In this document: positions 32,625 through 52,647 of the stretch, in pieces
How positions within the stretch are numbered: position 1 is the first letter of the stretch
Layout of the letters: each line of letters opens with the position of its first letter
Assembly (NCBI GenBank): GCA_051874735.1
Contig: JBJEGD010000026.1
Coordinates: forward strand, 91,452-155,451
DNA from: Candidatus Bruticola sp.
GTDB taxonomy: Bacteria; Vulcanimicrobiota; Xenobia; Xenobiales; Xenobiaceae
Direction: 5' to 3'
Length of the DNA stretch: 64,000 nt
Notes under the pieces: model-generated
The model's database searches: none
What the model was told of the DNA's origin: nothing
The model's input: the letters and a program-made list of their open reading frames with translations, nothing else
Program-made: the position numbers and the translations under genes

Positions 32625-32633
32625 GAGGTCGCA

Positions 32634-33194: not shown

Positions 33195-33214
33195 AAATGC
33201 GGAGGATAAACAGG

Positions 33215-33688: not shown

Positions 33689-34402
33689 ATGGAACAGGGA
33701 CTCATACATACTAGCGCTTGTATTGATGTCTTCGCCTCTCTTGGAGAGGGATGCCGAGTCGGAGCTATGGCTGTTATTGAAAGTGGAGCCCAAATTGGCT
33801 GCGGAGCTGAAATCGGTCCTAAAGTTTATATCGGACGCAACGTTTCTATCGGTGAAAGAGCTGTTATAAAGTGCGGTGCTGTTATTATGGATGGCGTTGT
33901 TGTTGGCAGAGAAGCGGTAGTCGAGTCGGGGGCTGTTTTGGGAATGGATGGCTTTGGATATGTTTTTGACGGACAAAGCCATCGTAAAATTCAGCAAATA
34001 GGCAATGTTGTCATTGGGCAGGGAGCGAAAATTGGCGCTTGTTCCTGTATAGACAGGGCCGCTTCTGCTTCAACGGTCGTTGGCGATCATACTGAAATAG
34101 GTCATATGGTGATGGTCGGTCATAACAGCAAGATTGGCAGCGGGTGTCGCATTGGTGATCAGAGCGGTTTAACTGGTTCCTCTCTGGTCGGTAACGATTG
34201 TATCATCGGCTCTCAGTGTGGTATAGGTGTGCGTGTTGAACTTGGCGATGGCTGTGTGTTGCTAGATCGAGCCACGGCTATGCGCAAATATGAGCCTGGG
34301 CAGGTTCTGGCCGGACATCCAGGACGACCGGTGGCGGAGGTTCGCCGTGCAGAAGCGGCTTTTAATTTGCTGCCTAAACTTTTAAAAGATTATATTGAGT
34401 AG
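33689..34402 (+). CDS. lpxD: UDP-3-O-acylglucosamine N-acyltransferase, short form (LbH plus C-terminal helix only)
   Basis: It aligns without gaps to the E. coli LpxD catalytic region: IDRAASASTVVGDHTEIGHMVMVGHNSKIG...LTGSS versus [30 protein letters not shown]...MAGSL. The His of the HN motif is present. At 237 aa it has no room for the about 100-aa N-terminal domain, because the upstream gene ends at 33688. Confidence 0.75.
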   Translation: MEQGLIHTSACIDVFASLGEGCRVGAMAVIESGAQIGCGAEIGPKVYIGRNVSIGERAVIKCGAVIMDGVVVGREAVVESGAVLGMDGFGYVFDGQSHRKIQQIGNVVIGQGAKIGACSCIDRAASASTVVGDHTEIGHMVMVGHNSKIGSGCRIGDQSGLTGSSLVGNDCIIGSQCGIGVRVELGDGCVLLDRATAMRKYEPGQVLAGHPGRPVAEVRRAEAAFNLLPKLLKDYIE

Positions 34403-34406
34403 TTCG

Positions 34407-34448
34407 TACCGGTCTTGGGGGCGGTTTTCTAGTCGGGAAGACCGGTAG
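34407..34448 (+). terminator. hairpin after short lpxD (weak T tail)
   Basis: taccggtctt pairs with aagaccggta, a 10-bp stem with a 22-nt loop. Confidence 0.45.
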
Positions 34449-34613
34449 ATCTTGTTGTTAGGGCAGATTCGGAGCAACTCATTTCCATTTTATCAATATT
34501 TATGTCAAGGCGCCTCAATTAGTCTGCAGTTTTGAAATTTGCAGCAGCACAGTTTAGGGCGCTATTTTTCTGTGTAACGCAGAGAGCGATGAATCTGTCG
34601 GAGTTGGGTTTTT

Positions 34614-36458
34614 ATGAGAAAATATAATTTATGGGCCTTAATTTTGGCTTTTGTAGTCTTTTATTCCGCTGCTCTGTCATCTGCCTGGGCTGCTGATGTA
34701 ATGCTGGGAGGCCAGGTTATCTTTCGTATAAATGATGAGGATCAAGCAAAAAAAATATCCCAAAAAATTGAAGCTATGTTGCAGAGGGGGGCTTCTTCGT
34801 CTTCAATTAAAGTCGTACGTAAAGATATTGCTGTAGCCTCGGAGGGGCAAGATAAGCAAGATAAAGATGAAGGTAGCAAGGGAGGGGCTAAAGCGAAAAA
34901 ATCTGTTTATAAAATATTTTGGGGAAGTGAATTAGTCATTGAAGTGAATGACGAAATTGCCAAGCAGAATGCTTCTTCTCCAGAAGCTTTAGCTAATTTA
35001 TGGGCCTCCAATATGCGCAATGTCGTCGATATTGGCCTGTTGAATGTTGATGTTGCTAGAGTCGTTTTACCTATAGAGGCTGATAAGGTTATTTACGCTT
35101 CTGGTTTGGCAACCGGTCCTTTGAGTGCTGAAGAGACTTCAGGTATCGTTGATATTGATATCGATCAGGAAAACGGCCTTATTAAGATAAAAGGGCGCAG
35201 GGTTGGAAAGTCGTCTATCGTTATTAGCAAAGGGGTTGCCTCCGTTTCCGTTTTTGTGCAGGTGAAAGATTGGGCCGGCAAACTTCCTCAGACGGTTAAT
35301 GTTGAAGTAACTGGCAATCCTGCACAGATTGATGACGTTTCCCAGGCGGTTATGCTTTCCATAGCGGCTAATACTTTCGTTCAGCCAGGCTGCAGTGTTT
35401 ATGTTGATGATTCCAACTTTAAACCGATTCCGGTGAGTAAAGGCGACAGTATGCGCTTAAGCGTGCCTGTGGGTATAAATGCTTCGGAAGATTATTTTGC
35501 GCTTCGCGGCAATGTTAATGTTGTAGTTAGCAATATAGAAGCTCCTGTAGTTGAGCAGAATCTGCTTCTAGTCAGCAATCGGCCGGAGCGTGTCAGCACA
35601 GATGGAGTATTAATGAAGTATAACTTCAAGAGACGTGAGCCCAGTCGTCTTATGTTCTCCCATCTTAATGCTTCCGAAAAGAATCGTTATTTGTGGATAA
35701 ATTTAGCTAATTTAAATGACGAACCGATAAAGATTGTTATCAGTCGCACTTCTGCTGGACCTGAGCGCAGCGAAATTTATGTCGGCCAAACGGCTGCCAA
35801 GCGCTTTTTAGAAAATTTGGCCAGTCGTTCCGGCTATATCATTACTCTTCCGCCCAATTCTGCTTTAGAGCTCTGTTCTTATGTGATGCGTCCTGAAGCT
35901 TTGGTAAGTGGATTTATAAATTTCCAAATTTTGGAAGGTACTAGCGCGACCGTTGAAGTGCGCAGTTCATTAAATCCTAATGCTAACGATGGACGTCCTC
36001 TGCCAGAAATAGGGGCCCCTTTTAATCCTTTCAAAATACATCCTCACGGAGTTTTTGCTCAGCCTTATTTTGAAAATGAAGGTGAATTTGTTATAGGTGG
36101 CAGTCCTTTAACTTTTCGTTATGGTGAGAGTCCTTGGCTGATTGATTTTGAAACTGGGCTGCCCAACACTGGCAATTTCGGGGTTTTGTATAAATCTTTG
36201 GTAGAATTAAAAAATCCTACTAAGCGTACAAAAACTGTGGGACTTTACTTTACGCCTTTGTCCGGCCCTGGCGGTGCTAACTTCCTGATAGGCAATTCTG
36301 TTTATCAGGCAGTTTTCCGCAAAAAAGGTGATGAAGTACTTGTAGCTAAAATCGAACTCTCGCCAGAGTCTAGCAGTATAATTGAAATTGTCACTTTACC
36401 TGAGGCGACTTCCTGTTATCCTGCCCAGTATGAATTGCGTGAACTGGACGGGCGCTGA
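34614..36458 (+). CDS. secreted 614-aa protein of unknown function
   Basis: Signal peptide MRKYNLWALILAFVVFYSAALSSAWA. It has its own terminator. No family recognised. Confidence 0.7.
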   Translation: MRKYNLWALILAFVVFYSAALSSAWAADVMLGGQVIFRINDEDQAKKISQKIEAMLQRGASSSSIKVVRKDIAVASEGQDKQDKDEGSKGGAKAKKSVYKIFWGSELVIEVNDEIAKQNASSPEALANLWASNMRNVVDIGLLNVDVARVVLPIEADKVIYASGLATGPLSAEETSGIVDIDIDQENGLIKIKGRRVGKSSIVISKGVASVSVFVQVKDWAGKLPQTVNVEVTGNPAQIDDVSQAVMLSIAANTFVQPGCSVYVDDSNFKPIPVSKGDSMRLSVPVGINASEDYFALRGNVNVVVSNIEAPVVEQNLLLVSNRPERVSTDGVLMKYNFKRREPSRLMFSHLNASEKNRYLWINLANLNDEPIKIVISRTSAGPERSEIYVGQTAAKRFLENLASRSGYIITLPPNSALELCSYVMRPEALVSGFINFQILEGTSATVEVRSSLNPNANDGRPLPEIGAPFNPFKIHPHGVFAQPYFENEGEFVIGGSPLTFRYGESPWLIDFETGLPNTGNFGVLYKSLVELKNPTKRTKTVGLYFTPLSGPGGANFLIGNSVYQAVFRKKGDEVLVAKIELSPESSSIIEIVTLPEATSCYPAQYELRELDGR

Positions 36459-36660: not shown

Positions 36661-37500
36661 ATGTGCAGAGCGCAGCGTACTTTGGCGAAAGAAGTTTCCT
36701 TCGAAGGAGTAGGGATTCATACTGGGAGAGCGAGTCACCTAACTATTAAGCCGGCTCCTGTCGATCACGGTCTCGTTTTTCTTAGTTCTGGAGAGTATAT
36801 CCCTGCTACCTATGAGTACGTTATTTCTACAAAGCGCTCTACAACGATTGGTAAGGGACAGGTCGCGGTAAATACTATCGAGCATTTAATGGCCGCTTTT
36901 GGAGGTCTTTCTGTGGATAATGCTCTTATAGAGATAGAAGGGCCGGAAGTTCCTATTTTAGACGGTTCTGCTTTGCCTTTTTGTCAGGCTATGGAAGAAG
37001 CAGGTATAGTTAATATCAAAGGCAGTGAAGTAGAAGATTATTATCTGAGCGAGCCCATTTTTGCTGCAGAAGGGGACAGTTTAGTTTTGGCTATGCCCGA
37101 TTCCCAATATAATCTTGAAGGAGCTGTCAGCTACAACAGTCCTCAAGTAGGTATTCAGCGATATCGTTACTGCGGATATGACAACTTTGTGACTCATATA
37201 GCTCCTGCTCGTACTTTTGGTTTTTGGTCTGAGGTAAAAACTCTCTTAGAAAACGGATTAGGGCAAGGTGGCGATCTGTCTAATGCTTTAATTTATGATC
37301 GTCCTGGTTTTAATGCTGCAGAAAATCAGCGTTTTGTCAATGAACCGGTGCGTCACAAAATTTTAGATTTAGCTGGTGATATTTGTCTGTTAGGTCGTCC
37401 GCTGTGTGCTTTTGTTTTGGCCGTTCGGGCTGGTCATAAATTGCATGTAGAATTCGTTCGCAAAATCGCTGAGGAGATGAAAAAAAATGCTGAATACTAA
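36661..37500 (+). CDS. lpxC: UDP-3-O-acyl-GlcNAc deacetylase
   Basis: RTLAKEVSFEGVGIHTG, TIEHLMAA, EVPILDGSA and HKILDLAGD motifs. Confidence 0.9.
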   Translation: MCRAQRTLAKEVSFEGVGIHTGRASHLTIKPAPVDHGLVFLSSGEYIPATYEYVISTKRSTTIGKGQVAVNTIEHLMAAFGGLSVDNALIEIEGPEVPILDGSALPFCQAMEEAGIVNIKGSEVEDYYLSEPIFAAEGDSLVLAMPDSQYNLEGAVSYNSPQVGIQRYRYCGYDNFVTHIAPARTFGFWSEVKTLLENGLGQGGDLSNALIYDRPGFNAAENQRFVNEPVRHKILDLAGDICLLGRPLCAFVLAVRAGHKLHVEFVRKIAEEMKKNAEY

Positions 37501-37912
37501 AGATATATTGCACAGGATTAATTACAAAAGTCCTCTTTTTTTTGTTGATATTGTTAACGAGTTAGAGTTTCCTAAAATCTCTGGTTATAAAAATGTGACT
37601 ATGAGCGAGCCCCATTTCGCTGGACATTTCCCAGGCAAACCCATTATGCCTGGAGTACTACAAATGGAAGCTTTGGTACAGATTTGCCGACTTCTCTATA
37701 TAGGGAATGAAGAGGCTCCTATTAAAGTAAAAGAGCTCGATTTAGTTGGAGTTAAAAAATTTAAGTTTAGAACTCCTGTTGTTCCAGGAGATCGCCTCGA
37801 TCTTTATGCTGAAGAAATTGAGCGTAACAACGAAAATATAGTGCTATCTGTTAAAGCTTGCGTTGGAGATAATGTCGCTTGTGAAGGAATACTTTCTTTC
37901 AGTTGGCAATAA
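37487..37912 (+). CDS. fabZ: 3-hydroxyacyl-ACP dehydratase
   Basis: HFPGKPIMPGVLQMEAL motif. It overlaps lpxC by 14 nt. GAGGAG RBS. Confidence 0.9.
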   Translation: MLNTKDILHRINYKSPLFFVDIVNELEFPKISGYKNVTMSEPHFAGHFPGKPIMPGVLQMEALVQICRLLYIGNEEAPIKVKELDLVGVKKFKFRTPVVPGDRLDLYAEEIERNNENIVLSVKACVGDNVACEGILSFSWQ

Positions 37913-38028
37913 AAGGCGAACGCACGACCGTTTGCGGCTAGCTGTAGGAAATTTGCCATATACAGACGAAATTATAAACCGTTTTGTGTTCGCTTTTGCA
38001 TAGAGACAAAAATTGGAGGATAAGCATT

Positions 38029-38967
38029 ATGAAGCCGATTAAAGTTGGCGTGGTCGGCATTGGTAGTATGGGGAAAAACCATGCTCGAGTGTGCGCCGAA
38101 CTACCTCAAATTGAACTTACAGGCATGGTGGATCTCGATGAAGCCAGAGTCGCCCCTTTAGCTCAGCAGTACGGCACACAGTATTATAAAGATTATAAGA
38201 GTCTCTATGGCAAAATCGACGCTGTAGTTATTGTTGCACCTACACCGCTTCACTATCAAATCGCTCAAGATTTTTTGGAACAGGGCGTTCATGTCTTGGT
38301 AGAAAAGCCCATTACTGTAGAGGTAAGCGAGGCTAAACGGTTAGTGACTTCCGCTAAGGAAAAAAATCTTGTTCTGCAGGTAGGTCATTTGGAGCGTTTC
38401 AATCCAGCCGTAATAAAGCTTAAGCAGATGGTGAGCAAACCTGTGTTAATAGAATGCCACCGCCTTTCTGGGCCTACTACTCGCAGTCTCGATGTCGGTA
38501 TTATTTGGGATTTAATGATCCACGATTTTGATATACTTCTCAGTTTATATAAATCTCCAGTAGCCGAAATCCATGCTATGGGGACTTCTATCTATTCTAA
38601 ATTTGAAGATGTAGCTCACGTGCAAATGCGGTTTGAATGTGGGGCTGTAGCCAGTTTGGTAGCTAGTCGCAATTCCGGAGAAAGGAAGCGCAGTCTCAAA
38701 ATTACTGAAGATACCGGACGAGTTTTGTCTCTCGATTTTATTAACCAAACTTTAGTTATTTCTCGTCCTGGCCCCGATGGGCGTCCCCTAGATTTGGAGC
38801 CAGTTCACATCGAGAAAGAGGAACCTCTACGTTTGGAACTCAGCAATTTTGCAGATTGTGTGATTAATCACAAGGAACCTGTTGTATCCGGTGAGGATGG
38901 CAAGCGAGCTTTGGAATTAGCTGTTCACGTTTTGGAGAATATGCAAAAAATTACGCTTTCTAAGTAA
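38029..38967 (+). CDS. Gfo/Idh/MocA-family NAD(P)-dependent oxidoreductase (GnnA-like position)
   Basis: ATG at 38029 follows GGAGG. Rossmann N-terminus IKVGVVGIGSMGKNHA and an EKP motif (LVEKPIT). It lies between fabZ and lpxA. Confidence 0.85.
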   Translation: MKPIKVGVVGIGSMGKNHARVCAELPQIELTGMVDLDEARVAPLAQQYGTQYYKDYKSLYGKIDAVVIVAPTPLHYQIAQDFLEQGVHVLVEKPITVEVSEAKRLVTSAKEKNLVLQVGHLERFNPAVIKLKQMVSKPVLIECHRLSGPTTRSLDVGIIWDLMIHDFDILLSLYKSPVAEIHAMGTSIYSKFEDVAHVQMRFECGAVASLVASRNSGERKRSLKITEDTGRVLSLDFINQTLVISRPGPDGRPLDLEPVHIEKEEPLRLELSNFADCVINHKEPVVSGEDGKRALELAVHVLENMQKITLSK

Positions 38968-39017
38968 AGCAGCAATAAAAATTTTTCCGCTTAAAGTACA
39001 GAGAGGAGAGCCAAGAG

Positions 39018-39827
39018 GTGATTCATTCCAGCGCTATAGTACATCCCGGGGCACGCATCGGTGAGGGAGTAGAAATCGGACCTTTTTCTATTATCGGAGA
39101 AAATGTAGAAATTGGAGACGGAACTAAAATTATGTCTTCTGTCGTCATAGATGGATGGACAACTATAGGCAAAAATAACAAAATTTATCCGGGTGTATCT
39201 ATTGGTCTGGCACCTCAGGATTTCAGTTATAAAGGGCAGCGTTCATTTGTAACTATTGGTGATAATAATGAGTTCCGTGAATATGTGACTATTCATAGGG
39301 CTGCCGATGAAGATGGTATTACTTCTGTGGGTAGCGGCAATCTGCTTATGGCGAATGTACACATCGCTCATAACTGCCATATTGGTAGTCAAATTACTAT
39401 GGCTAATTATGCTGGTTTGGCTGGTCATACTGTAGTAGAAGATCAGGCGGTATTAGGTGGGCTTGTAGGTATCCATCAGCACACCCGCATCGGTCGTTTG
39501 TGTATGGTAGGCGGATGCTCCAAGATAAATAAAGATTTGCCGCCCTTCAGTATTGTCGATGGTAATCCTTGTCGTCTCTTTGGTATGAATTTCCGAGGCA
39601 TGCGGCGCCGTGACATTTCTAAGGAAAGTCGTTTAGCTGTTCATAAAGCTATCAATATTTTGGGCAGTTGTGGACTGACCTTAGACGCCGCTATAGAACG
39701 CATAGACAGTGAGTTGGAGCATACCCCTGAAATTGAACATTTCCTGACTTTCCTGCGCGGTGATTCTCATATGGGAGTTCTCAATAAAGCCGGCAACGTA
39801 GGGGCGAGAGCTCACAGTAACGCTTAA
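39018..39827 (+). CDS. lpxA: acyl-ACP:UDP-GlcNAc O-acyltransferase
   Basis: GTG follows AGAGG. It has an IHSSAIVHPGARIGEGVEIGPFSIIG hexapeptide start, a catalytic-region HIAHNCHIG and a C-terminal helical domain. Confidence 0.9.
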   Translation: MIHSSAIVHPGARIGEGVEIGPFSIIGENVEIGDGTKIMSSVVIDGWTTIGKNNKIYPGVSIGLAPQDFSYKGQRSFVTIGDNNEFREYVTIHRAADEDGITSVGSGNLLMANVHIAHNCHIGSQITMANYAGLAGHTVVEDQAVLGGLVGIHQHTRIGRLCMVGGCSKINKDLPPFSIVDGNPCRLFGMNFRGMRRRDISKESRLAVHKAINILGSCGLTLDAAIERIDSELEHTPEIEHFLTFLRGDSHMGVLNKAGNVGARAHSNA

Positions 39828-39838
39828 TTGGTGCAGCT

Positions 39839-42286
39839 TTGACTGAAAATAGTCAGCAACAATCATCTGCTTATCCTCAGTTGACGGTTGCGATAATCGC
39901 CATAGAGCCTTCTGCCGATCTTCATGGAAGCAATTTGGCTAGGGCTCTTTTGGCGATTAATCCGCATCTAAAACTGGTCGGCGTAGGCGGATCGCATATG
40001 GCCGCGTCGGGAGTCAGTCTGTGGTTAAGGACCACAGACATGGCAGTTATTGGTCCCGGCGGGGCTATTGCTCGTTTGCCTAAATATATATGTTACTATT
40101 TGTACGTGCGCAGGCATTTGCTTAAGGAACATCCTCACCTCAGCATTTTAATAGACTGCCCCGCCGTTAACATGCGTTATGCTGGTCTTTTGACTCGCTA
40201 TGGCTATCATTCTGTTTATTACTTTCCCCCTTCTGCCTGGACAACCAGCGAAGTGCGTCTTAGACAGATTTTTAGCCGCACAGATAGGGTAATTTGTACC
40301 TTCTTGAGCAATGCCGAAAATTATCGCCGTCTGGGTATGGATGTAGATTTCTTCGGCCATCCTCTTATCGATATGCCCGAGTTAGGAATTTCTGCAGAAG
40401 AAGCTAAAAACAAGTTGGGGCTGGTAGGCGAAAATATTTTGGCTTTACTTCCGGGCAGTCGTGCTTCAGAAATAAAGTATCTATTGCCGATTTTTTTAGA
40501 AATAGTTGCTAAGTTGCATCAAGAAATAGAAAATTTGCAGGTACTTGTACCTTGTGCAACTCAGGCGCTTCGCAGGCAAATAGTTGCCTATATGGGGGAT
40601 AGGTTCCCTTATGTGCGTGTTTTAAATGGGCAGTCTCGTTTAGCCCTTTTAGCTTGTCGAGCAGCGTTGATGAGCTCTGGCACAGCTAGCCTGGAAGCTG
40701 CGATATTAGGCGCCCCAATGGTTCTGTCTTATAAACTTTGTCCCTTCGATGCTGTTATAGGTAAGTTCCTGATTTGGAGTGGTTTATTAAAAATTGAGCA
40801 TATCGGGTTGCCCAGTTTGGTCGCTGGACATCGCATTGTTCCAGAGTTTGTTCAAGATGAAGTTTCACCTGAAAATATTATCCCTCATTTGCGCAATTTT
40901 ATGCGAGATACTCCTGAGCGGTGCCAAATAAAACAAGATCTTTTAGATATGAGGAAGTCCATGGGCGCTCCTGGAGTAATTACCAAGATAGCCTCTTCTT
41001 TATATAGTCGCATTGAGAGCAGTGCTGCTGAAAGGATGGCTGAACCTTTCGACATTGTTATAACATCTAATTCTCCTGGAGAGGTGTCCACGTGGGTGCG
41101 ACGCACTGTTGCTCAGTTGGAGGTTAAAAACAAAGGGCAGTTTAGAGTTATAGTAGCGTTAGTTCCATGTCCTTATGCTTCCGGAGCTGAAGCTGAAGTC
41201 GCCGCTTCTCTGCCAGGCGTTTCCATTGTTCTGACGCCTAGTCAGACTGTGCGTTTAATGTGCGGCATGTTCAACGATTTTGAGCTGCGTAAAAAGGGAG
41301 TAGTAGTATTTTTAGGCGGTGATCTTATTCACGCTAAAATTTTGGCTTGGCGTTTAAAATATCGCTCTATAGCCTATGCAGCTAGATACAACAGGCTAAT
41401 CTACTATTTTGATAAAGTCGCTGCTTCAGATATTTCACTGGCCTCTGAATTATTAGAAGCTGGAGTTAATGAAGTTGTTAATATAGGTAATTTAAGTATT
41501 GATGGGGTTATTTCTGAAGTTGATAGGGAAGCAGCTGATAAAGTATCCCGTAGAACTGGCTTGAAGATTGGCATTTTCCCAGGATCGCGTTTTCTGCATA
41601 CTAAGATCGCTCTAGGAGTGTTTTTGCGTGTAGCTGCTCTAATAAAAACGCGTCACCCTGAGGTTGAATTTGTCCTTTCTGTATCGCCTTTTCTTTCCCC
41701 AGCTCGGCTGGAATCGGCACTTTGTAATCCTTTTAGTTTGGGGCTTCCGGTAGCTAAGGGTAAATTGCTCAGTGCTGATCGCATTGCAGTTGAGTGTATG
41801 TATGAAGATGAACAGGCTGCAGGACGCAGTTTTGAAGTTGAAGTTTTGTGGGGCCATCCTTATCAAGCTATTGCAGAAATAGATATGGCACTTACCATTC
41901 CGGGAACGAATACTGGAGAGTTGGGGTGTTGCGGCAAACCTATGGTAGTAGGACTTTCTGCTGATGCTTCCCTGCCCAGAGGAGGTTTGGGCGGCTTATT
42001 TGAAAGGATGCCAGTTTTATCAAAACTTAAGAGTTATTTGCGCTTGCGTTCTTATGCGCGTCACGGTTTCGCTGCGATCCCTAACCGTATTGCTTCTAGA
42101 GCTATCGTTCCTGAAGTTTTAGTAAAAAAAGATACGTCTGTGCTGGCCCAGCCTATTTTAGAGTGGATTGAAACTCCTGAGAAGTACGCCCGTGTTTCCC
42201 AAGATTTAAAAGACACTATGAGAACGACAGAGGGAGCGGGCAAGCGCATGGCTGAGTTGATCCTGGGTTTGGTTGATTCTAAATAA
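39839..42286 (+). CDS. lpxB: lipid-A-disaccharide synthase fused to a second LpxB-related GT-B module
   Basis: TTG start. Residues about 15-395 look like LpxB (IEPSADLHG..., YYFPPSAW, FFGHPLID, LLPGSRASE, GTASLEAAILGAPMV). Residues about 400-815 form a second module (ITSNSPGEVS, IFPGSRFLH, PGTNTGELGCCGKPMVV). Confidence 0.8.
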   Translation: MTENSQQQSSAYPQLTVAIIAIEPSADLHGSNLARALLAINPHLKLVGVGGSHMAASGVSLWLRTTDMAVIGPGGAIARLPKYICYYLYVRRHLLKEHPHLSILIDCPAVNMRYAGLLTRYGYHSVYYFPPSAWTTSEVRLRQIFSRTDRVICTFLSNAENYRRLGMDVDFFGHPLIDMPELGISAEEAKNKLGLVGENILALLPGSRASEIKYLLPIFLEIVAKLHQEIENLQVLVPCATQALRRQIVAYMGDRFPYVRVLNGQSRLALLACRAALMSSGTASLEAAILGAPMVLSYKLCPFDAVIGKFLIWSGLLKIEHIGLPSLVAGHRIVPEFVQDEVSPENIIPHLRNFMRDTPERCQIKQDLLDMRKSMGAPGVITKIASSLYSRIESSAAERMAEPFDIVITSNSPGEVSTWVRRTVAQLEVKNKGQFRVIVALVPCPYASGAEAEVAASLPGVSIVLTPSQTVRLMCGMFNDFELRKKGVVVFLGGDLIHAKILAWRLKYRSIAYAARYNRLIYYFDKVAASDISLASELLEAGVNEVVNIGNLSIDGVISEVDREAADKVSRRTGLKIGIFPGSRFLHTKIALGVFLRVAALIKTRHPEVEFVLSVSPFLSPARLESALCNPFSLGLPVAKGKLLSADRIAVECMYEDEQAAGRSFEVEVLWGHPYQAIAEIDMALTIPGTNTGELGCCGKPMVVGLSADASLPRGGLGGLFERMPVLSKLKSYLRLRSYARHGFAAIPNRIASRAIVPEVLVKKDTSVLAQPILEWIETPEKYARVSQDLKDTMRTTEGAGKRMAELILGLVDSK

Positions 42287-42287: not shown

Positions 42288-42941
42288 ATGAAAATTCCTA
42301 ATGAAAATTGCCAAAATATTGCTACTCCTTTTATTTTCAAGTGGCGAGGCTTGATTATGGCAGTAGTGACGGCTATCATACTGGCTGCTGCCAAGCCAAC
42401 TTTAGTTACCTGCTGCTGGGGAATTGGCTTTGTACTTTTAGGAGAGCTGTTGCGTTCATGGGCTTTGGGCTGGACTGGAGAACATACACGTAGTCAGGAA
42501 TTAATGGCGTCTTTTTTAGTTACTGGCGGTCCTTATAAATACATACGCAATCCACTGTACTTAGGCAATATTTTAAACGGATTTGGGGTTATGGTTGCTG
42601 CTTCTGGAGCTATGTCGTATTTGGGAACGGCTGCTTTGTGGGCTTTTGGTCTTCTATCTCTTTATATGGTTTATGCTTCATGTATAATCGCTGAAGAAGC
42701 TTTCTTGGCTATGCGTTTTGGTGATCTCTTCTTCCGCTACAGAGCAGTTACGCCGACCATTGTACCGCGTTGGGGAGATTATCTCGATTTTATAAGCAGT
42801 TTTTTCAATTTCTCTTCCTGTACAGATGTTCAATATGAAGGGAGAGGCTTCTTCTCTTGGCAATCTTTAAAATTTGAATATAGTACTTGGGGATGGATAA
42901 TTGCTGTTTGGTCTTGTTTATTTATAAAAGCTTTCATGTAA
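42288..42941 (+). CDS. ICMT/Ste14-like membrane methyltransferase family protein
   Basis: The ATG at 42288 begins immediately after the lpxB stop. The protein is multi-TM and has GPYKYIRNPLYLGNIL, the family signature. Confidence 0.7.
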   Translation: MKIPNENCQNIATPFIFKWRGLIMAVVTAIILAAAKPTLVTCCWGIGFVLLGELLRSWALGWTGEHTRSQELMASFLVTGGPYKYIRNPLYLGNILNGFGVMVAASGAMSYLGTAALWAFGLLSLYMVYASCIIAEEAFLAMRFGDLFFRYRAVTPTIVPRWGDYLDFISSFFNFSSCTDVQYEGRGFFSWQSLKFEYSTWGWIIAVWSCLFIKAFM

Positions 42942-42949
42942 AAACATTT

Positions 42950-42985
42950 AGTGCTTATCCCCTGCCTTAGGCTGGGATAAGCACT
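42950..42985. terminator. hairpin between convergent operons
   Basis: agtgcttatccc pairs with gggataagcact, a 12-bp stem with an inner gcc/ggc. T-runs are weak. Confidence 0.65.
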
Positions 42986-43026
42986 TGACCAGGCTATGTT
43001 ATATGCTGCTATTCTCTAGTTAATAG

Positions 43027-44202
43027 TTAAGGCCGCATGGAAATCTCGGTTAAAATTTGAGCCATGCGGGCTGCTCCTCCGGGAGGGCCTAGTCTCTCTT
43101 GGCCGATAGATCCGCGCCGTTGCCGATCAGCTTTGTCTTGCATTAGGCGACATAGAGTTTCGATTATATCGGGATCGTAATCTTCACAAACAATAAGAGC
43201 CTCACCGAGCAGCCCCTTTTGTCTGGCCCTATACCACTTTAAACGAGTCTCTCCGCCTGGTTCATAAGCAACAACAGGAATACCGTGACCAGCCGCTTGT
43301 TCATGTGCTGTGCCCGCCAATCCTAGAGCGACTTGACTGTATTTTAGTACATCAGCTAGATGGCCTTTGATAAGAAAGAACTGAACTTGATACTCCGCCT
43401 TGTTGTCTGCAAGTTTAAGTTCGCTCCAACCCGGATAAGGTGCTTCGTTCATAACAAAACCCGGACAGGCCTGTGCTAACTTTGAGGTATCAATAGATGG
43501 AGCTACGGCAATAAAGGCACAAATTTTCTTATTTAAGCGTTGAGACAGCTGGCAACTTATTTCTAAAAGGCGAGGCAGTACCCTGTAAGTAGCTTGTCTG
43601 CTGCCGGGAAAGAGAGCTAGGCCTATTTCTTTGCTGCTGTCTAGACTGAAGTCCAGTTCTTGAGGAACCAAACCATCCATCATAGCATTACCTACCCAGA
43701 TAGCTTTAACTCCTTTTTGACGCAGACTGGCAGCTGTAGGTTCATCTCGGACAATAGAGCGAACTTTGAAAGTTCTCAGAACCCAAGCTTCTAGAGCTGA
43801 GTAAGGATGATGATAGTCAGATTTAGCCGTGCCAATGAAGGTTATTGGGCGTATACCAGATAGGGCAGCTAGAATAACTGGCCAAAGATCGCCGACAGCG
43901 GCAATGTGATTGAAACGGTGACGATTTGAGCGCAGCCAAAACAGCTGTTTTAAAGTTAAATAGGCTAAGCCGCCGCCAAGATCTTTCCAAAAATTACGCC
44001 AATCTTCTTGAATAAGGCCGCCGCTGGGCATGTCGCTGACAGGGCCGTTTATGGGAGCTATTCCTTTGTACGCTGAGCCTTCTCCAACCAAAGGTAAAGC
44101 TTCTATATCGATTGATTTAGGCAGCTCCTTAATTATCTGGGCAGCTATGGAATCTTCACCGGCTCCGTTAGATACAAGTAAAAGGCGTTGAGGGGCGGGC
44201 AT
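43027..44202 (-). CDS. LpxB-related GT-B glycosyltransferase (lipid-A-disaccharide synthase-related type)
   Basis: ATG at 44202 follows AAGGAGAG. It has LLLVSNGAGEDSIAAQII, LFPGSRQAT and GLAGTAHEQAAGHGIPVV, the same architecture as the second module of the lpxB fusion. Confidence 0.7.
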   Translation of the reverse strand: MPAPQRLLLVSNGAGEDSIAAQIIKELPKSIDIEALPLVGEGSAYKGIAPINGPVSDMPSGGLIQEDWRNFWKDLGGGLAYLTLKQLFWLRSNRHRFNHIAAVGDLWPVILAALSGIRPITFIGTAKSDYHHPYSALEAWVLRTFKVRSIVRDEPTAASLRQKGVKAIWVGNAMMDGLVPQELDFSLDSSKEIGLALFPGSRQATYRVLPRLLEISCQLSQRLNKKICAFIAVAPSIDTSKLAQACPGFVMNEAPYPGWSELKLADNKAEYQVQFFLIKGHLADVLKYSQVALGLAGTAHEQAAGHGIPVVAYEPGGETRLKWYRARQKGLLGEALIVCEDYDPDIIETLCRLMQDKADRQRRGSIGQERLGPPGGAARMAQILTEISMRP

Positions 44203-44234
44203 AATCTCTCCTTTTAAGTTTTTTAGCAGCAAAT

Positions 44235-45080
44235 TTAAGCTAAACTTATCAACTTACAGTGACTTAGCTGTGGATTATCCATATTGTATTCAATTTCATT
44301 TATATGTTTGGCGAATGCACCAGTTTGTACAATAAAAGAACCATTAACTTGACAAGGTGAGTCCAGTTGGGTATGGGTATGGCCTCCTAAAATCCAGGTG
44401 CCTGGCGGCGTATTAACCGCCAATTGCTGATCTCGGTCAAAACCTATGTGACTGATGATAACTAAATTAGTTCTTAGACCTAATTTAGCTGAGCAGCGAT
44501 CAGCTATCTGAGGCAAAGTTGTCTCTGCTTTGAAAAAACGAAAACCAAATATTTTTTCCCATATGGCATTATGAGGGTATTGCACCGGCATGGCTGATAA
44601 AATCAGCAAGGCACAATTTGAGCTCCAAGAGCTGTTAAAAAGCGCCAGACCGGGAATCCAGCGCTCTGAGGATAGTTCTTGCCAGGCCGAGGAGTTACGC
44701 CAGTTAGCAGAACTGCAGTCTATTATTGGTATATCTTGAATTTGCTCGACAAATTCGCGCTGAGTTAAATGACCACTAAGACGTATATCAGACAAATTAG
44801 TACAGATAAGCGGAAAAGAACGCTGTCTAGCTCTTTTGTCTAGAATACGCCTTTGATAATTGAACTCTCGATTGCCCATAGCCATGGCTGCGCAGCCGAC
44901 AGAACTCATTTTATCTAAGTTTGGTTCAAAGTTTTTCCATACTGTGTTAGAACCGATTAGAGCGTCGCCGCTGTCAAAATAAAGGGCTTGACCTGCGGCT
45001 ATAGAGGCCTGGGCCTGGCTTTTGAGCCAAGCCAAAGCCTCGCTGCGTCCGTGCATATCGTTGGTATGATAAATAATCAT
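44235..45080 (-). CDS. UshA-type calcineurin-like metallophosphoesterase (N-domain only, 281 aa)
   Basis: Motifs YHTNDMHGR, DSGDALIGS, GNREF, ISHIG and GGHTH. Arg replaces the usual His of the GNHE motif. Confidence 0.8.
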   Translation of the reverse strand: MIIYHTNDMHGRSEALAWLKSQAQASIAAGQALYFDSGDALIGSNTVWKNFEPNLDKMSSVGCAAMAMGNREFNYQRRILDKRARQRSFPLICTNLSDIRLSGHLTQREFVEQIQDIPIIDCSSANWRNSSAWQELSSERWIPGLALFNSSWSSNCALLILSAMPVQYPHNAIWEKIFGFRFFKAETTLPQIADRCSAKLGLRTNLVIISHIGFDRDQQLAVNTPPGTWILGGHTHTQLDSPCQVNGSFIVQTGAFAKHINEIEYNMDNPQLSHCKLISLA

Positions 45081-45105: not shown

Positions 45106-45678
45106 TCAATTTTTGCTTCGCTGGGAAACTTTTGAGCTTCTTTCCTGAGCTACTTCGGTATAGACTTGACGGTAGCGATCTATTCCTATATATCTACAAA
45201 TTACTATACCGTAACCTATTATCCAACCGACTCCAGCTAGAGAAGCACCACCCAAACATACCCCTAATATTAAACCAATGCATCCGAAAATTAAACTGTT
45301 TAGCATAGGCTTAGAATCTAGTGATATTGAGTAACCTAAAGAAAGCCCAATAATAGCTCCCACTAGTCCGTAGTAACTACCTTTGCCTATATCTGCAGCC
45401 GTGGTTGCAATAGCCAAACTCGCTTTAGCTGCCTGCACAAGTGAATATTCAGACTGGCCAGCATCGATAATGGAGTTCGCTCCCCACAAGAATCCCATCA
45501 TCAGTCCCATGCCGGCGAAGCAGAGGCAGTACAAAGTCCTCTGTTGTTTGGTAAGAAAAGTTACAGACTGTTCTGTATTACTAGTCTTATTCGCGGTAGA
45601 CGATGAATTTTTTTTATCTTGCTTAGCGTTTTTCTTTTCTTTTTTTTTGCTGTCTTTGAGAGACGCCGGATCACTCAT
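45106..45678 (-). CDS. membrane protein with a Lys-rich N-terminus and Gly-zipper TM segments
   Basis: It has KKKEKKNAKQDKKNSS followed by about 4 Gly/Ala-rich hydrophobic segments. It overlaps the upstream gene by 8 nt. Confidence 0.6.
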   Translation of the reverse strand: MSDPASLKDSKKKEKKNAKQDKKNSSSTANKTSNTEQSVTFLTKQQRTLYCLCFAGMGLMMGFLWGANSIIDAGQSEYSLVQAAKASLAIATTAADIGKGSYYGLVGAIIGLSLGYSISLDSKPMLNSLIFGCIGLILGVCLGGASLAGVGWIIGYGIVICRYIGIDRYRQVYTEVAQERSSKVSQRSKN

Positions 45679-46654
45679 GTTTTTTATCTTTGTCCTTCAG
45701 AGATAATTTTGCCAATTTTTTTATTTGCTCCCATTTTTTTAAAGGAAGCTGACGCATCGCAATTTGGCGCATCGATACTTTATGTGCTTGAACGGGATCG
45801 CCGGACCACACTGACTGACCGGCTGGAATATCTTTATCCACGCCCGATCTAGCTGCTACTGTGGCAAAATCGCCGATATGACGCCCTTCTTTTACCAAGC
45901 ATTGGCCGGCGGCTATGGATAATTTTCCAATATAAGCTCTCTCCTGCAGACAGTTTTGAGAAATAATTATAGCCATAGGCTCTATAATAGATTCTTTGTT
46001 AATGCAGGCTAAATTGTCTATGCGCACTCCTTGATGAATAAGTGCTTTCCTGCCTATAAAGCAGCGAGCACCTATTTCAATATCACTTCCCAAAGAAGCT
46101 TCATCTTCGATAATGGTTAGCGGCCCTACTAAACTTGAACCTTCCAATTTTACTTTTTTCCCTAAAGAAACTCCGGGCATCAATTTAGTGTCAGCTCCTA
46201 CAAAGCTGTCGCTATCTATGCTGACATGAGCTTGAATTTGGCAGTTATCGCCAATGGTTACTCCATCTGCTATAACGGCAAAGGGGCCTATATAGGCTGT
46301 AGGAGATATGTTGGCAGAATCGCTTATGCAAGCACTTTCGTGTATCCCCGGCTTAAAGCGAAAAGGAGGATAATACAAATCGAGGAGCTTAGCATAGGCT
46401 ACTCGAGAATTTTTCACTAATATAGCCGGAATATTTGTTTGTATTTTTTCGGGTATAATTACTGCAGCAAAGCCGAGGTGCACTGCTTCTTGTAGTGAAC
46501 TTTCGTCTTCAGCGAAAGTAATTGCCGAGTTTAGATTGTGACTTAAAGCTGCGTCCATACCTGTGACTTCTTTTATAACCAGAGAAGCACTTTCCGGTAT
46601 GTTCAGACGACCTTCAAGATAATCGGCCAGCTCTTTTAAGTTCTTTACCACCAT
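45671..46654 (-). CDS. LpxD-like acyltransferase paralogue (full-length architecture, catalytic His position is Lys)
   Basis: The N-terminus is like the LpxD uridine-binding domain (LKELADYLEGRL...ITFAEDESSLQEA...AVIIPE). It has LbH repeats. The region IDNLACINKESII aligns to E. coli IDNQCQIAHNVVI. Confidence 0.75.
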   Translation of the reverse strand: MVVKNLKELADYLEGRLNIPESASLVIKEVTGMDAALSHNLNSAITFAEDESSLQEAVHLGFAAVIIPEKIQTNIPAILVKNSRVAYAKLLDLYYPPFRFKPGIHESACISDSANISPTAYIGPFAVIADGVTIGDNCQIQAHVSIDSDSFVGADTKLMPGVSLGKKVKLEGSSLVGPLTIIEDEASLGSDIEIGARCFIGRKALIHQGVRIDNLACINKESIIEPMAIIISQNCLQERAYIGKLSIAAGQCLVKEGRHIGDFATVAARSGVDKDIPAGQSVWSGDPVQAHKVSMRQIAMRQLPLKKWEQIKKLAKLSLKDKDKKHE

Positions 46655-50597: not shown

Positions 50598-51026
50598 TTG
50601 AGTACATCCTTTTCGAAACTATTAAAAGACTGCGTCTCTGATATAGTCTTCACGCAGCAGCACGAAAGGTCTAGAGCGAAAACCTCTGATTAAAGCGTTT
50701 TTATAAACCGCTTTTTTATATAACAGAGTTACATCCTTCTTCGTTTTTATTGTGTTCGGTGTAGCTATCTATTGACGGAATATCAAGTTCACCGAATGCT
50801 GACTGCTGCATTAGACAAGCCTACTTATATTTGACGAAAATGGCTTATAACCTTTTATCTATCAACTTGCACAACAGTCAGCTTATTTAATTTGTTTCAT
50901 ATTTTTATTGTTAGCAACTAAAAAATATTAATAACAATTCAATGTCTTAAATGGCAAGGAAAAGAAAAGTTTGCCTGATATTATATAAAATTATGCAGTT
51001 TATTAAGGTTGCAGCGGAGGCATTAT

Positions 51027-51728: not shown

Positions 51729-51752
51729 ATCGACAAGGCGAGAGGGCAAAGA

Positions 51753-52538: not shown

Positions 52539-52647
52539 AAAGAATAAACAGCTAAGAGCATCTGCTGCTTAGTTAATCTTAACAAGTAGAACTCTGATTT
52601 ATAGTCGGCTGGAAAATCCGGATTAGAAGGCAAGTAGACAGGTATTT

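What the first reader, a model, noticed from the sequence alone, without database searches (positions are those of the whole stretch)
42288..42941. ICMT/Ste14-like methyltransferase immediately after lpxB: possible lipid A phosphate methyltransferase (LmtA-like)
Seen: a multi-TM protein with the GPYKYIRNPLYLGNIL signature starts immediately after the lpxB stop, so the two genes are probably co-transcribed. Established: Leptospira interrogans LmtA, a Ste14p-like membrane methyltransferase, methylates the 1-phosphate of lipid A. Inference: together with the GnnA-like gene, the locus hints at a Leptospira-style modified lipid A.
Basis: partly seen in the sequence, partly recalled or inferred. Interest (0 to 1): 0.5.

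Follow-up and report, generated by a model that had tools for sequence, protein, structure and literature searches.

The report
Lipid A-linked LmtA-like membrane methyltransferase
A small membrane methyltransferase gene sits directly after the lipid A disaccharide synthase gene of an uncultured gut bacterium (Candidatus Bruticola); in relatives it is always next to, or fused with, an undescribed copy of that synthase, so it probably methylates the membrane anchor of lipopolysaccharide, a modification known so far only from Leptospira.

Summary
ORF 42288-42941 (+) encodes a 217-aa, five-helix ICMT/PEMT-family protein. It starts 1 nt after the stop of an 815-aa "lpxB" and is under purifying selection (dN/dS about 0.1).

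- **Family:** its best NCBIfam model is Leptospira LmtA, but at 43 bits against a cutoff of 325, so it is not an LmtA orthologue. It belongs to a wider LmtA-like subfamily.
- **True partner:** the conserved neighbour is not LpxB proper. It is the extra C-terminal half of the 815-aa protein ("LpxB_C"), an unannotated GT19/LpxB paralogue.
- **Linkage:** the methyltransferase gene directly follows LpxB_C in Xenobia, in other Eremiobacterota and in an unrelated genomic context. In at least 13 protein clusters the two are fused into one polypeptide.
- **Specificity:** 35 linked sequences form one clade. 78 more distant ICMT-family loci have no LpxA/B/C/D-type gene nearby.
- **Catalytic residues:** the SAM-binding motifs and the anion-binding Arg (R56, equivalent to ICMT R173) are invariant.

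Best reading: a lipid A-dedicated SAM-dependent O-methyltransferase acting at the cytoplasmic face, most plausibly on the 1-phosphate. The target atom is inferred, not shown. Novelty: a new variant of a known kind.

The parts
42288..42941 (+). LmtA-like ICMT/PEMT-family membrane methyltransferase, 217 aa. Motifs: F15-I-F-K-W-R20-G21; G52-E53-x-x-R56; G64-E-H-T-R68; G81-P-Y-x-x-x-R87-N-P-L-Y91-x-G93; E136-E137-x-F-L-x-x-x-F144-G145-x-x-x-x-x-Y151; C-terminal TM helix 191-216.
39839..41008 (+). N-terminal half of the 815-aa ORF: bona fide LpxB (lipid A disaccharide synthase).
   Evidence: Pfam LpxB 249.7 bits over residues 17-358; TIGR00215 248.6 bits against a cutoff of 190.
41009..42286 (+). 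C-terminal half of the 815-aa ORF ('LpxB_C'): a divergent GT19/LpxB paralogue matching no Pfam or NCBIfam model at or above its cutoff. It is the conserved partner of the methyltransferase. It keeps the LpxB-type PGSR and PGTNTxE nucleotide-binding motifs.
   Evidence: The boundary is approximate, taken from the BLAST and HMM coordinates.
42950..42985 (.). 12-bp-stem hairpin in the 85-nt gap between the convergent methyltransferase and TIGR03492 genes. Possible bidirectional terminator, but it has no U-tract.
   Evidence: MFE -27.5 kcal/mol for the 95-nt stretch 42936-43030, z = -2.6. It was not picked up by the consensus terminator scan.
43027..44232 (-). TIGR03492 'lipid-A-disaccharide synthase-related protein', the third GT19-like paralogue of the locus.
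   Evidence: 273.7 bits against a cutoff of 219. Conserved near the module in relatives.
44235..45080 (-). UshA/SoxB-like metallophosphoesterase, 281 aa. Candidate functional analogue of LpxH/LpxG (UDP-2,3-diacylglucosamine hydrolase); this is an inference.
   Evidence: In other Eremiobacterota and in the fusion-bearing clusters it lies directly downstream of the methyltransferase.
45106..45678 (-). 190-aa membrane protein of unknown function, conserved in the cluster in Xenobia-type loci.
45671..46654 (-). LpxD-like N-acyltransferase, 327 aa.
   Evidence: PRK00892 163.7 bits, below the cutoff of 207.
36661..39827 (+). lpxC (36661-37500), fabZ (37487-37912), GnnA-like UDP-GlcNAc 3-dehydrogenase (ORF 37984-38967; the true start is probably near 38029, since orthologues are 312 aa), and lpxA (39018-39827). 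These lie upstream on the same strand as lpxB and the methyltransferase.
33689..34402 (+). Short (237 aa) LpxD-like hexapeptide acyltransferase lacking the N-terminal LpxD domain. It opens the lpxD-(DUF3370-like)-lpxC-fabZ-...-lpxB arrangement.
   Evidence: PRK00892 207 bits, model positions 103-332.

Best explanation
The gene encodes a five-helix inner-membrane SAM-dependent O-methyltransferase of the ICMT superfamily. It belongs to an LmtA-like subfamily and is dedicated to lipid A biosynthesis.

It works as one unit with LpxB and an LpxB paralogue (LpxB_C). In Bruticola, LpxB and LpxB_C are fused and the methyltransferase is translated from the next cistron. In other lineages LpxB_C and the methyltransferase are a single polypeptide.

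Proposed mechanism:
- The N-terminus and both SAM-binding motifs (GPYxxxRNPLYxG and EExFLxxxFGxxxxxY) face the cytoplasm.
- An invariant Arg (R56, equivalent to ICMT R173), perhaps with the clade-specific R20 and R68, positions an anionic oxygen of the lipid substrate at the membrane-cytoplasm interface.
- The most likely substrate is the 1-phosphate of the lipid A disaccharide just made by LpxB/LpxB_C. Methylation would give a phosphomethyl diester, as LmtA does in Leptospira, before export.

Shown here: fold and family, conserved catalytic residues, purifying selection, clade-specific gene linkage and gene fusion. Inferred: topology, catalytic activity, the acceptor molecule and the acceptor atom.
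For: Family and fold:
- Pfam PEMT and ICMT score above their gathering thresholds.
- The family profile hits ICMT 5v7p at E 1e-9 and 4a2n at E 5e-7, with GE..R, R(H/N)PxY and EE..L...FG..Y aligned.

Catalytic residues:
- R56, G81-P82-Y83, R87-N88-P89-L90-Y91, E136-E137, G145 and Y151 are at least 89% conserved in 36 clade members.
- R56 aligns with ICMT R173, one of the two Arg residues that bind the substrate carboxylate (PMC8358657, citing Diver 2018).

LmtA affinity:
- TIGR04571 is the best NCBIfam model for the window protein and for all 10 other clade members tested, at 33-67 bits. It beats isopcys_mtase by 3-36 bits.
- In relatives the alignment covers model positions about 51-202, including the extra C-terminal helix.
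- Three generic ICMT-family proteins (P0019, P0082, L021) score higher on isopcys_mtase than on LmtA, and two (P0018, L039) score about equally, with LmtA ahead by 0.4 and 3.3 bits.

Linkage to lipid A genes:
- The gene lies immediately downstream of LpxB_C in Xenobia loci at 42-80% identity, even where downstream synteny is broken.
- The same holds in other Eremiobacterota, where LpxB_C is a separate gene.
- It also holds in an unrelated dapB/asd/rpsU context.
- 28 of 69 evaluable metagenomic LpxB_C loci show it.

Fusions:
- LpxB_C::methyltransferase fusions of 580-638 aa occur in at least 13 clusters.
- One sits between lpxB and the metallophosphoesterase in a full lpx cluster.

Specificity:
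- 35 linked sequences form a clade of 36 in an NJ tree of 111.
- 78 more distant loci have no LpxA/B/C/D-type gene within 10 kb. Three have looser LPS links: LptF/G in L016, a GnnA-like gene in L018, and an LpxB_C-like gene 9 kb away in L039.

Topology: the fusion puts the N-terminus on the side of the cytoplasmic GT-B domain, and K+R counts are 9 cytoplasmic against 0 periplasmic.
Against: - The LmtA model score is far below its cutoff (43 against 325), and for the window protein only the generic core aligns.
- No real LmtA sequence could be obtained, so no direct alignment or joint phylogeny was made.
- Nothing here identifies the acceptor atom.
- ICMT R246, the second carboxylate-binding Arg, aligns with C132, so the substrate pocket differs from ICMT in an unknown way.
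- The cluster resembles the cyanobacterial/Dictyoglomi 'four-enzyme' lpxD-lpxC-fabZ-lpxA-lpxB type, whose LPS is reported to lack phosphate (PMC3087551). If the 1-phosphate is removed in these organisms, there is no target.
- The tight coupling is to a second glycosyltransferase rather than to LpxB. This may mean the methyl acceptor is whatever that enzyme adds.
- The Foldseek PDB search gave no significant hit.
Confidence: 0.5

Rival explanations
1. The enzyme belongs to the lipid A/LPS pathway but methylates a different acceptor. In this reading the LpxB_C glycosyltransferase adds a residue to the lipid A disaccharide, for example a uronic or other acidic sugar, in a lineage without LpxK or WaaA in the cluster. 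The ICMT-like enzyme then methyl-esterifies that residue's carboxylate (ICMT-type chemistry) or O-methylates it.
For: - The conserved and fused partner is LpxB_C, not LpxB.
- LpxB_C keeps the GT19 UDP-binding motifs PGSR and PGTNTxE, so it is probably an active transferase (residues from PMC5785501).
- ICMT proper methylates a carboxylate held by the Arg that is conserved here (PMC8358657).
- No LpxK or WaaA Pfam hit was found in any cluster inspected.
Against: - The closest curated model is the phosphate methyltransferase LmtA, not ICMT.
- The second carboxylate-binding Arg of ICMT is absent.
- The donor and acceptor of LpxB_C are unknown.
- 40 of 69 LpxB_C-family loci have no methyltransferase, so the LpxB_C product does not generally require methylation.
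Confidence: 0.2
2. The protein is a phospholipid-type methyltransferase (PEMT-like N-methylation, or methylation of another membrane lipid). It is co-regulated with outer-membrane biogenesis but does not act on lipid A.
For: Pfam PEMT is nominally the top Pfam hit (28 bits). The family is very large and functionally diverse: 25,537 hits at E < 1e-3.
Against: - The fusion to, and strict adjacency with, an LpxB paralogue inside lpx operons is hard to explain this way.
- The linked sequences are a distinct clade.
- No phospholipid-synthesis genes are in the neighbourhood.
Confidence: 0.08
3. The ICMT-like domain is mainly a membrane anchor or scaffold. It tethers the peripheral LpxB/LpxB_C glycosyltransferases to the inner membrane or hands product to the exporter, and methyl transfer is dispensable or lost.
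For: - In fusions the TM domain sits at the C-terminus of a soluble GT-B domain.
- In the other branch of the LpxB_C family, the gene slot after LpxB_C is occupied by an MsbA-type ABC exporter, another membrane protein.
Against: The SAM-binding and catalytic motif residues are invariant or nearly so across the clade, and dN/dS is about 0.1. That is not expected of a mere anchor.
Confidence: 0.07
4. This is an ordinary housekeeping ICMT-family protein whose position after lpxB is a lineage-specific accident.
For: Most ICMT-family genes are unlinked to lpx genes: 78 of 80 genome loci. One clade member, P0031/L098, lies in a polysaccharide cluster instead.
Against: Adjacency survives rearrangement, different genomic contexts and identity down to about 35-40%. 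Independent gene fusions also exist.
Confidence: 0.03

Closest known systems
LmtA of Leptospira interrogans (NCBIfam TIGR04571, lipid A Kdo2 1-phosphate O-methyltransferase; Hinckley et al. 2005, cited in PMC4402001)
   Same: - ICMT/Ste14-superfamily polytopic inner-membrane protein.
- It is the best-scoring curated model for the whole clade.
- In relatives the alignment extends beyond the generic core: to the N-terminal FxFKxR motif in the nearest outgroups (model positions 11-12 onward) and to an extra C-terminal helix (to about position 200).
- Association with the lipid A pathway and with a GnnA-type UDP-GlcNAc 3-dehydrogenase.
   Different: - Scores are 33-67 bits in the clade (43 for the window protein) against a cutoff of 325, so it is not an orthologue.
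- Different phylum (Vulcanimicrobiota/Eremiobacterota).
- Genetically hard-wired to an LpxB paralogue, adjacent or fused. I know of no such arrangement for LmtA; that rests on my own knowledge and was not tested.
- The Xenobia proteins carry an insertion of about 30-50 aa before the last helix.
- Substrate unverified.
Isoprenylcysteine carboxyl methyltransferase (Ma-ICMT 4A2N; Tribolium ICMT 5V7P/5VG9; Pfam PF04140; NCBIfam NF040696)
   Same: - SAM-binding motifs.
- The Arg equivalent to R173.
- Predicted active site at the cytoplasmic leaflet.
   Different: - NF040696 scores 29.9 bits against a cutoff of 160.
- The R246 equivalent is Cys.
- RNP replaces RHP.
- Clade-specific N-terminal motif and loop residues.
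- The genomic context is lipid A synthesis, not protein prenylation.
LpxB, lipid A disaccharide synthase (GT19; E. coli structure 5W8S): the closest known relative of the partner domain LpxB_C
   Same: The LpxB_C profile hits 5w8s at E 3.9e-15. The PGSR (P198-R201) and T277...E281 equivalents are invariant (PMC5785501). It lies beside lpxB in lpx clusters.
   Different: - Only 20-24% identical to the LpxB in the same protein or cluster.
- Below the cutoffs of TIGR00215 and TIGR03492.
- It coexists with a bona fide LpxB, so it is a paralogue of unknown reaction.
- It occurs fused either to LpxB (Xenobia) or to the methyltransferase.
[quoted passage not shown] 2010, PMC3087551)
   Same: Same gene order in the window. 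No LpxH, LpxK or WaaA was detected in the cluster. Cyanobacteria-associated families are nearby: TIGR03492, DUF3084, and a weak DUF3370 hit.
   Different: The window cluster additionally carries GnnA-like, LpxB_C, the LmtA-like methyltransferase and a UshA-like phosphoesterase.

Membership tests
ICMT/PEMT superfamily (Pfam PF04140 / PF04191) | Profile score above the Pfam gathering threshold | tested here: met
   PEMT 28.0 bits (GA 25) and ICMT 26.4 bits (GA 24), a narrow margin. The family profile A1 against PDB ICMT sequences gives E 1.1e-9.
ICMT/PEMT superfamily (Pfam PF04140 / PF04191) | Polytopic helical fold of Ma-ICMT/ICMT | tested here: met
   [not shown]
ICMT/PEMT superfamily (Pfam PF04140 / PF04191) | Cofactor-binding motifs R-H-P-x-Y ... 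E-E-x-x-L-x-x-x-F-G-x-x-Y | tested here: met
   R87-N88-P89-L90-Y91 (N replaces H, as in the whole bacterial RNPLY group) and E136-E137...F144-G145...Y151. These are invariant or at least 89% conserved in the clade.
ICMT/PEMT superfamily (Pfam PF04140 / PF04191) | SAM-dependent methyl transfer | not testable with these tools
   Needs biochemistry.
LmtA (TIGR04571, lipid A Kdo2 1-phosphate O-methyltransferase) | Score at or above the curated cutoff (325 bits) | tested here: not met
   Window protein 43 bits. Clade members score 33-67 bits; the nearest outgroups reach up to 93 bits.
LmtA (TIGR04571, lipid A Kdo2 1-phosphate O-methyltransferase) | LmtA is the closest characterised family, scoring better than the ICMT and MddA models | tested here: met
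   LmtA beats isopcys_mtase by 3-36 bits in all 11 clade members tested. It does not in three of five generic ICMT-family controls (P0019, P0082, L021); in the other two (P0018, L039) LmtA is ahead by only 0.4 and 3.3 bits.
LmtA (TIGR04571, lipid A Kdo2 1-phosphate O-methyltransferase) | Shared architecture beyond the core (N-terminal segment, extra C-terminal TM helix) | tested here: inconclusive
   The window protein aligns only to model positions 55-171 of 252. Relatives P0017, P0020, P0033 and P0329 align to about 51-202, and the outgroups L016 and L022 to 11-204. No LmtA sequence was available for direct alignment.
LmtA (TIGR04571, lipid A Kdo2 1-phosphate O-methyltransferase) | Methylates the 1-phosphate of (Kdo2-)lipid A | not testable with these tools
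   Needs lipid A mass spectrometry and an enzyme assay.
Eukaryote/archaeal-type ICMT (NF040696 isopcys_mtase) | Curated score cutoff and both carboxylate-binding arginines (R173, R246 in Tribolium ICMT) | tested here: not met
   29.9 bits against a cutoff of 160. The R173 equivalent R56 is present, but the R246 position aligns with C132 (PMC8358657).
Leptospira-style GlcN3N lipid A pathway (GnnA + GnnB) | Both the UDP-GlcNAc 3-dehydrogenase (GnnA) and the transaminase (GnnB, DegT family) are present | tested here: inconclusive
   GnnA-like is present (NF040723, 275 bits against a cutoff of 450). No DegT-type gene was found in the 64-kb window. A DegT gene lies between fabZ and gnnA in the related clusters L099 and L121.
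GT19 / LpxB (for the partner domain LpxB_C) | TIGR00215 or Pfam LpxB above cutoff, plus the LpxB active-site motifs | tested here: inconclusive
   TIGR00215 scores 26 bits against a cutoff of 190, so it is not LpxB proper. The profile hits E. coli LpxB at E 3.9e-15, with PGSR and T...E conserved. It is a paralogue, not an orthologue.

The most novel reading that the evidence does not exclude
The LpxB paralogue (LpxB_C) and the LmtA-like methyltransferase may form a previously unrecognised two-enzyme module, sometimes a single bifunctional protein. Together with TIGR03492 and a UshA-like phosphoesterase, it would complete lipid A in 'four-enzyme-pathway' diderms (Eremiobacterota and MAGs labelled Armatimonadota) that lack LpxK and WaaA in their clusters. 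The product would be a lipid A head group not yet described, for example an extra sugar plus a methyl-phosphate or methyl-ester. If so, lipid A methylation would be an ancient, operon-encoded biosynthetic step rather than a Leptospira-specific late modification.
Probability: 0.25. Interest if true: 0.75.

Novelty: new variant of a known kind. Interest (0 to 1): 0.58.

Why it matters
A methylated lipid A phosphate has been described only in Leptospira, where it accompanies poor recognition by human TLR4 (PMC10248169). A related enzyme hard-wired into the lipid A operon of a gut-associated Eremiobacterota lineage would have three consequences:

1. It would extend this chemistry to a second, very distant phylum.
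2. It would predict a low-charge and possibly weakly immunostimulatory LPS in a member of animal gut microbiota.
3. It would give a functional handle on two unannotated LpxB paralogue families (LpxB_C and TIGR03492). These families sit in the lipid A clusters of lineages whose pathway beyond LpxB is unknown.

The fusion proteins offer a direct experimental entry point, because one construct carries both activities.

Tried and rejected
- **Single-sequence phmmer against PDB:** only spurious picornavirus VP3 hits at E > 0.2. The family profile was needed to reach ICMT.
- **afdb50 fold search** (hoped to reach an AlphaFold model of LmtA): the library was not available.
- **LmtA primary paper** (PubMed 15994324, PMC2655238): not held. 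No LmtA sequence could be obtained, so the comparison stayed at the level of HMM scores.
- **Genome-contig scan:** the back-translated patterns were too Xenobia-specific. Only 2 of 80 loci were true clade members; the other 78 served as an unlinked control.
- **Promoter and terminator consensus scans:** no more sites than in shuffled sequence, so uninformative for operon structure.
- **Frameshifted triple fusion in Bruticola:** rejected. All Xenobia orthologues keep separate ORFs with gaps of 0-3 nt and the same MKIP start.
- **Literature:** searches for LpxB paralogues, TIGR03492 or Eremiobacterota lipid A found nothing relevant.
Full report
**1. Observation**

ORF 42288-42941 (+) exists exactly as described. 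It starts with ATG at 42288, encodes 217 codons and ends with TAA at 42939-42941. The upstream 815-aa ORF annotated here as lpxB ends with TAA at 42284-42286. The two cistrons are therefore separated by a single nucleotide and lie in different frames.

The quoted GPYKYIRNPLYLGNIL motif is residues 81-96. The 42288 start, rather than the in-frame Met24, is supported in two ways: orthologues begin MKIP..., and an invariant F-x-F-K-W-R-G motif lies upstream of Met24.

The gene is real:
- Pfam PEMT (28.0 bits) and ICMT (26.4 bits) are both just above their gathering thresholds.
- An identical protein is annotated in a Candidatus Bruticola MAG. That genus belongs to Vulcanimicrobiota/Eremiobacterota, class Xenobia.
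- dN/dS against orthologues is 0.10-0.15.

**2. What the protein is**

An AF2 model built on 18 homologues has pLDDT 77 and pTM 0.73. It shows five long helices plus short cytoplasmic ones.

- Foldseek against the PDB found nothing.
- A profile of the family hits the ICMT sequences 5v7p (E 1e-9) and 4a2n (E 5e-7).

The printed alignment gives these equivalences:
- G52-E53-x-x-R56 = ICMT G169-E170-x-x-R173
- R87-N88-P89-x-Y91 = RHPxY
- E136-E137 = E250-E251

R173 is one of the two arginines that hold the substrate carboxylate in ICMT (PMC8358657, citing Diver et al. 2018). The other, R246, aligns with C132 here.

The exhaustive HMM search shows the superfamily is huge: 25,537 representatives at E < 1e-3. 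Only 69 representatives reach E < 1e-30.

**3. Relation to LmtA**

The best NCBIfam model is TIGR04571 (LmtA_Leptospira). It scores only 43 bits against a cutoff of 325, over model positions 55-171 of 252. By NCBI's criterion this is not an LmtA orthologue.

As a control I scored other family members.

| Group | LmtA model score | LmtA against isopcys_mtase |
|---|---|---|
| All 11 clade members tested | 33-67 bits | LmtA higher by 3-36 bits |
| Nearest outgroups (L022, L016, L017, L018, L020, L023) | 55-93 bits | LmtA higher |
| Generic ICMT-family proteins (P0018, P0019, P0082, L021, L039) | 29-37 bits | isopcys higher in three (P0019, P0082, L021); about equal in two (P0018, L039) |

- In several clade members the alignment reaches model position about 200, which covers the extra C-terminal helix.
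- The nearest outgroups share the N-terminal FxFKxR motif. L022 and L016 align from model position 11-12.
- The generic proteins align on the core only.

So the window protein belongs to a wider LmtA-like subfamily. The Xenobia branch is its most divergent part, with an insertion before the last helix.

I could not obtain an actual LmtA sequence. The paper is not held and afdb50 was unavailable. The comparison therefore rests on HMM scores alone.

**4. The neighbourhood, and the real partner**

The window carries an outer-membrane biogenesis supercluster:
- **+ strand, upstream:** BamA, Skp (two copies), a short LpxD-like gene, a 614-aa protein with a weak DUF3370 hit, lpxC, fabZ, a GnnA-like gene, lpxA, the 815-aa lpxB and the methyltransferase.
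- **- strand, convergent:** TIGR03492, a UshA-like metallophosphoesterase, a 190-aa membrane protein, an LpxD-like gene and PmbA/TldD.
- **+ strand, further downstream:** LptC, LptB, LptF/G and DUF3084.

Only residues 17-358 of the 815-aa protein match LpxB. The C-terminal 425 aa ("LpxB_C") has no Pfam hit and only sub-threshold NCBIfam hits to lpxB and TIGR03492. A profile of its family hits E. coli LpxB at E 3.9e-15. The LpxB nucleotide-binding motifs PGSR and T...E are invariant (residue roles from PMC5785501).

**5. Conservation of the linkage**

- **Xenobia-type loci.** The methyltransferase is 42-80% identical and follows the fused LpxB-LpxB_C at gaps of 0-3 nt. The exception is L011, whose called start is 67 nt downstream. 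The adjacency holds even where the downstream genes have been replaced.
- **Other Eremiobacterota (L012, L094, L095).** LpxB is a normal 378-aa protein. LpxB_C is a separate 418-422-aa gene placed after lpxD. The methyltransferase (190-192 aa) again follows LpxB_C, and the metallophosphoesterase and TIGR03492 come next.
- **P0033's lineage.** An LpxB_C-like gene (32% identity, E 1e-59, against E 3e-11 to LpxB proper) and the methyltransferase form a pair with a 1-nt gap. The context is unrelated (dapB-asd-lysC upstream, rpsU-ybeY-dgkA downstream).
- **Fusions.** The exhaustive HMM search and the LpxB_C homologue search revealed single polypeptides of 580-638 aa with LpxB_C at the N-terminus and the methyltransferase at the C-terminus. 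At least 13 clusters show this: P0143/P0333, P0154, P0162, P0301, P0302, P0304, P0305, P0308, P0329, P0330, P0335, P0367 and P0382.
- **Context of two fusions.** P0329 lies in skp-lpxD-X-lpxC-fabZ-DegT(GnnB)-GnnA-lpxA-lpxB-[fusion]-metallophosphoesterase. P0382 follows a 699-aa LpxB.
- **By Rosetta-stone logic,** LpxB-LpxB_C (fused in Xenobia) and LpxB_C-methyltransferase (fused elsewhere) tie all three activities together.

**6. Specificity controls**

- A scan of species-representative genomes returned 78 more distant ICMT-family loci at 38% identity or less. They come mostly from Acidobacteriota. None has an LpxA/B/C/D-type gene within 10 kb.
- Three of those loci are loosely LPS-linked. 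In Poribacteria L016 the gene follows LptF-LptG. In Calditrichaeota L018 it follows a GnnA-like gene. In L039 an LpxB_C-like gene lies 9 kb away.
- From the partner's side, a metagenome scan with the LpxB_C profile gave 69 evaluable loci. In 28 the methyltransferase lies within 200 nt downstream, in one it is 2.1 kb away, and 40 lack it. In 24 of those 40 an MsbA-type ABC exporter (ABC_membrane + ABC_tran, 588-590 aa) occupies that position, often followed by TIGR03492.
- In an NJ tree of 111 unique ICMT-family sequences, the 35 LpxB_C-linked ones form a clade of 36. The single intruder, P0031/L098, lies in a polysaccharide cluster.
- Residues invariant in the clade but rare outside it include F17, R20, G21, E53, G61, R68, T79 and F144. 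The SAM-motif residues and R56 are shared with the whole family.

**7. Mechanistic reading**

- **Shown:** ICMT fold and family; intact cofactor motifs and the anion-binding Arg; purifying selection; clade-specific adjacency and fusion with a GT19 paralogue inside lipid A operons.
- **Topology (inferred).** In the fusions the cytoplasmic GT-B domain is joined directly to the FxFKWRG motif, so the N-terminus is cytoplasmic. With five TM helices, both SAM motifs then fall in cytoplasmic loops. This fits the K+R count of 9 in cytoplasmic loops against 0 in periplasmic loops and the known cytosolic-leaflet active site of ICMT.
- **Acceptor (inferred).** The enzyme would act on a lipid A intermediate at the cytoplasmic face, before export. 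The only anionic group that the LpxB product is known to carry is the 1-phosphate, and the nearest characterised relative methylates exactly that group. 1-phosphate O-methylation is therefore the most economical hypothesis (confidence about 0.5).
- **Main rival (about 0.2).** LpxB_C adds a residue and the methyltransferase modifies that residue.
- **Lower-ranked rivals.** A PEMT-like role, a purely structural role, or an accidental neighbour. The evidence against each is given in the rival entries.
- **Caution.** The cluster has the gene order of the cyanobacterial/Dictyoglomi 'four-enzyme' pathway, whose LPS reportedly lacks Kdo and phosphate (PMC3087551). No LpxK, WaaA or GnnB was found in the 64-kb window among the ORFs scanned.

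**8. Comparison with known systems, and novelty**

[quoted passage not shown] Literature searches found nothing on LpxB paralogues, TIGR03492 or Eremiobacterota lipid A. NCBI labels the protein only 'methyltransferase family protein'.

I therefore classify it as a new variant of a known kind. It is an LmtA-like ICMT-family enzyme, but from a distinct clade, and it is built into the core lipid A operon and coupled or fused to an undescribed LpxB paralogue.

**Verdict**

- Interest is 0.58. It is limited by the absence of any biochemical evidence. It is raised by the fusion proteins, which make the hypothesis directly testable.

Noticed in passing
window 39839-42286 (+): The 815-aa 'LpxB' is a fusion of a bona fide LpxB (residues about 1-390) with a divergent GT19 paralogue (residues about 391-815) that matches no Pfam model. 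In other Eremiobacterota the two halves are separate genes. [quoted passage not shown]
   Followed up: yes
L129, L133, L139-L146, L150-L154, L160-L179 (for example L153 9818-12899 and L145 9986-12996): In a second branch of the LpxB_C family, at about 28-36% identity, no methyltransferase is present. The gene immediately downstream is instead an MsbA-type ABC half-transporter (ABC_membrane + ABC_tran, 588-590 aa), often followed by a TIGR03492-like gene. This suggests that LpxB_C and TIGR03492 act at the lipid A completion/export interface in many lineages.
   Followed up: partly
window 43027-45080 (-): A TIGR03492 'lipid-A-disaccharide synthase-related' gene and a UshA/SoxB-like metallophosphoesterase travel with the module in all cluster types. 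The phosphoesterase is a plausible non-orthologous replacement of LpxH/LpxI/LpxG; no such gene was otherwise seen in the cluster.
   Followed up: partly
window 33689-34402 (+) and 45671-46654 (-): There are two LpxD-like acyltransferases. One is a 237-aa version that lacks the N-terminal LpxD domain (it aligns to model positions 103-332). The other is a 327-aa version that scores below the LpxD cutoffs. Related clusters also carry a second LpxA-like gene (L094 11484-12284).
   Followed up: no
window 26887-36458 and 51009-54949: Outer-membrane biogenesis genes (BamA, two Skp/OmpH, LptC, LptB, LptF/G) flank the lpx genes in one supercluster. Families otherwise typical of cyanobacteria accompany them: DUF3084, and a 614-aa protein with a weak DUF3370 hit that is conserved at the head of the lpx operon in all relatives.
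   Followed up: partly
L016 7504-10555 (Candidatus Poribacteria chromosome) and L018 16-1430 (Calditrichaeota): LmtA-like proteins outside the LpxB_C-linked clade also show LPS links. In Poribacteria the gene follows LptF-LptG by 124 nt, and it scores 76 bits on the LmtA model over positions 11-198. In a Calditrichaeota contig it directly follows a GnnA-like oxidoreductase.
   Followed up: partly
L099 5903-7991; L121 6468-8505: In clusters that carry the LpxB_C::methyltransferase fusion, a DegT-family aminotransferase (GnnB candidate) lies between fabZ and the GnnA-like gene. The Bruticola window has GnnA-like but no DegT gene within its 64 kb.
   Followed up: partly
window 1206-4445 (+): A 1079-aa protein combines NTP_transferase, hexapeptide-repeat and phosphoglucomutase/phosphomannomutase domains. 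This is a GlmU/GlmM-like fusion that could supply UDP-GlcNAc. The same gene lies upstream of the lpx cluster in L007.
   Followed up: no
window 55414-57486 (+): A 690-aa protein with 13 Sel1 repeats (413 bits) lies downstream of the Lpt genes.
   Followed up: no
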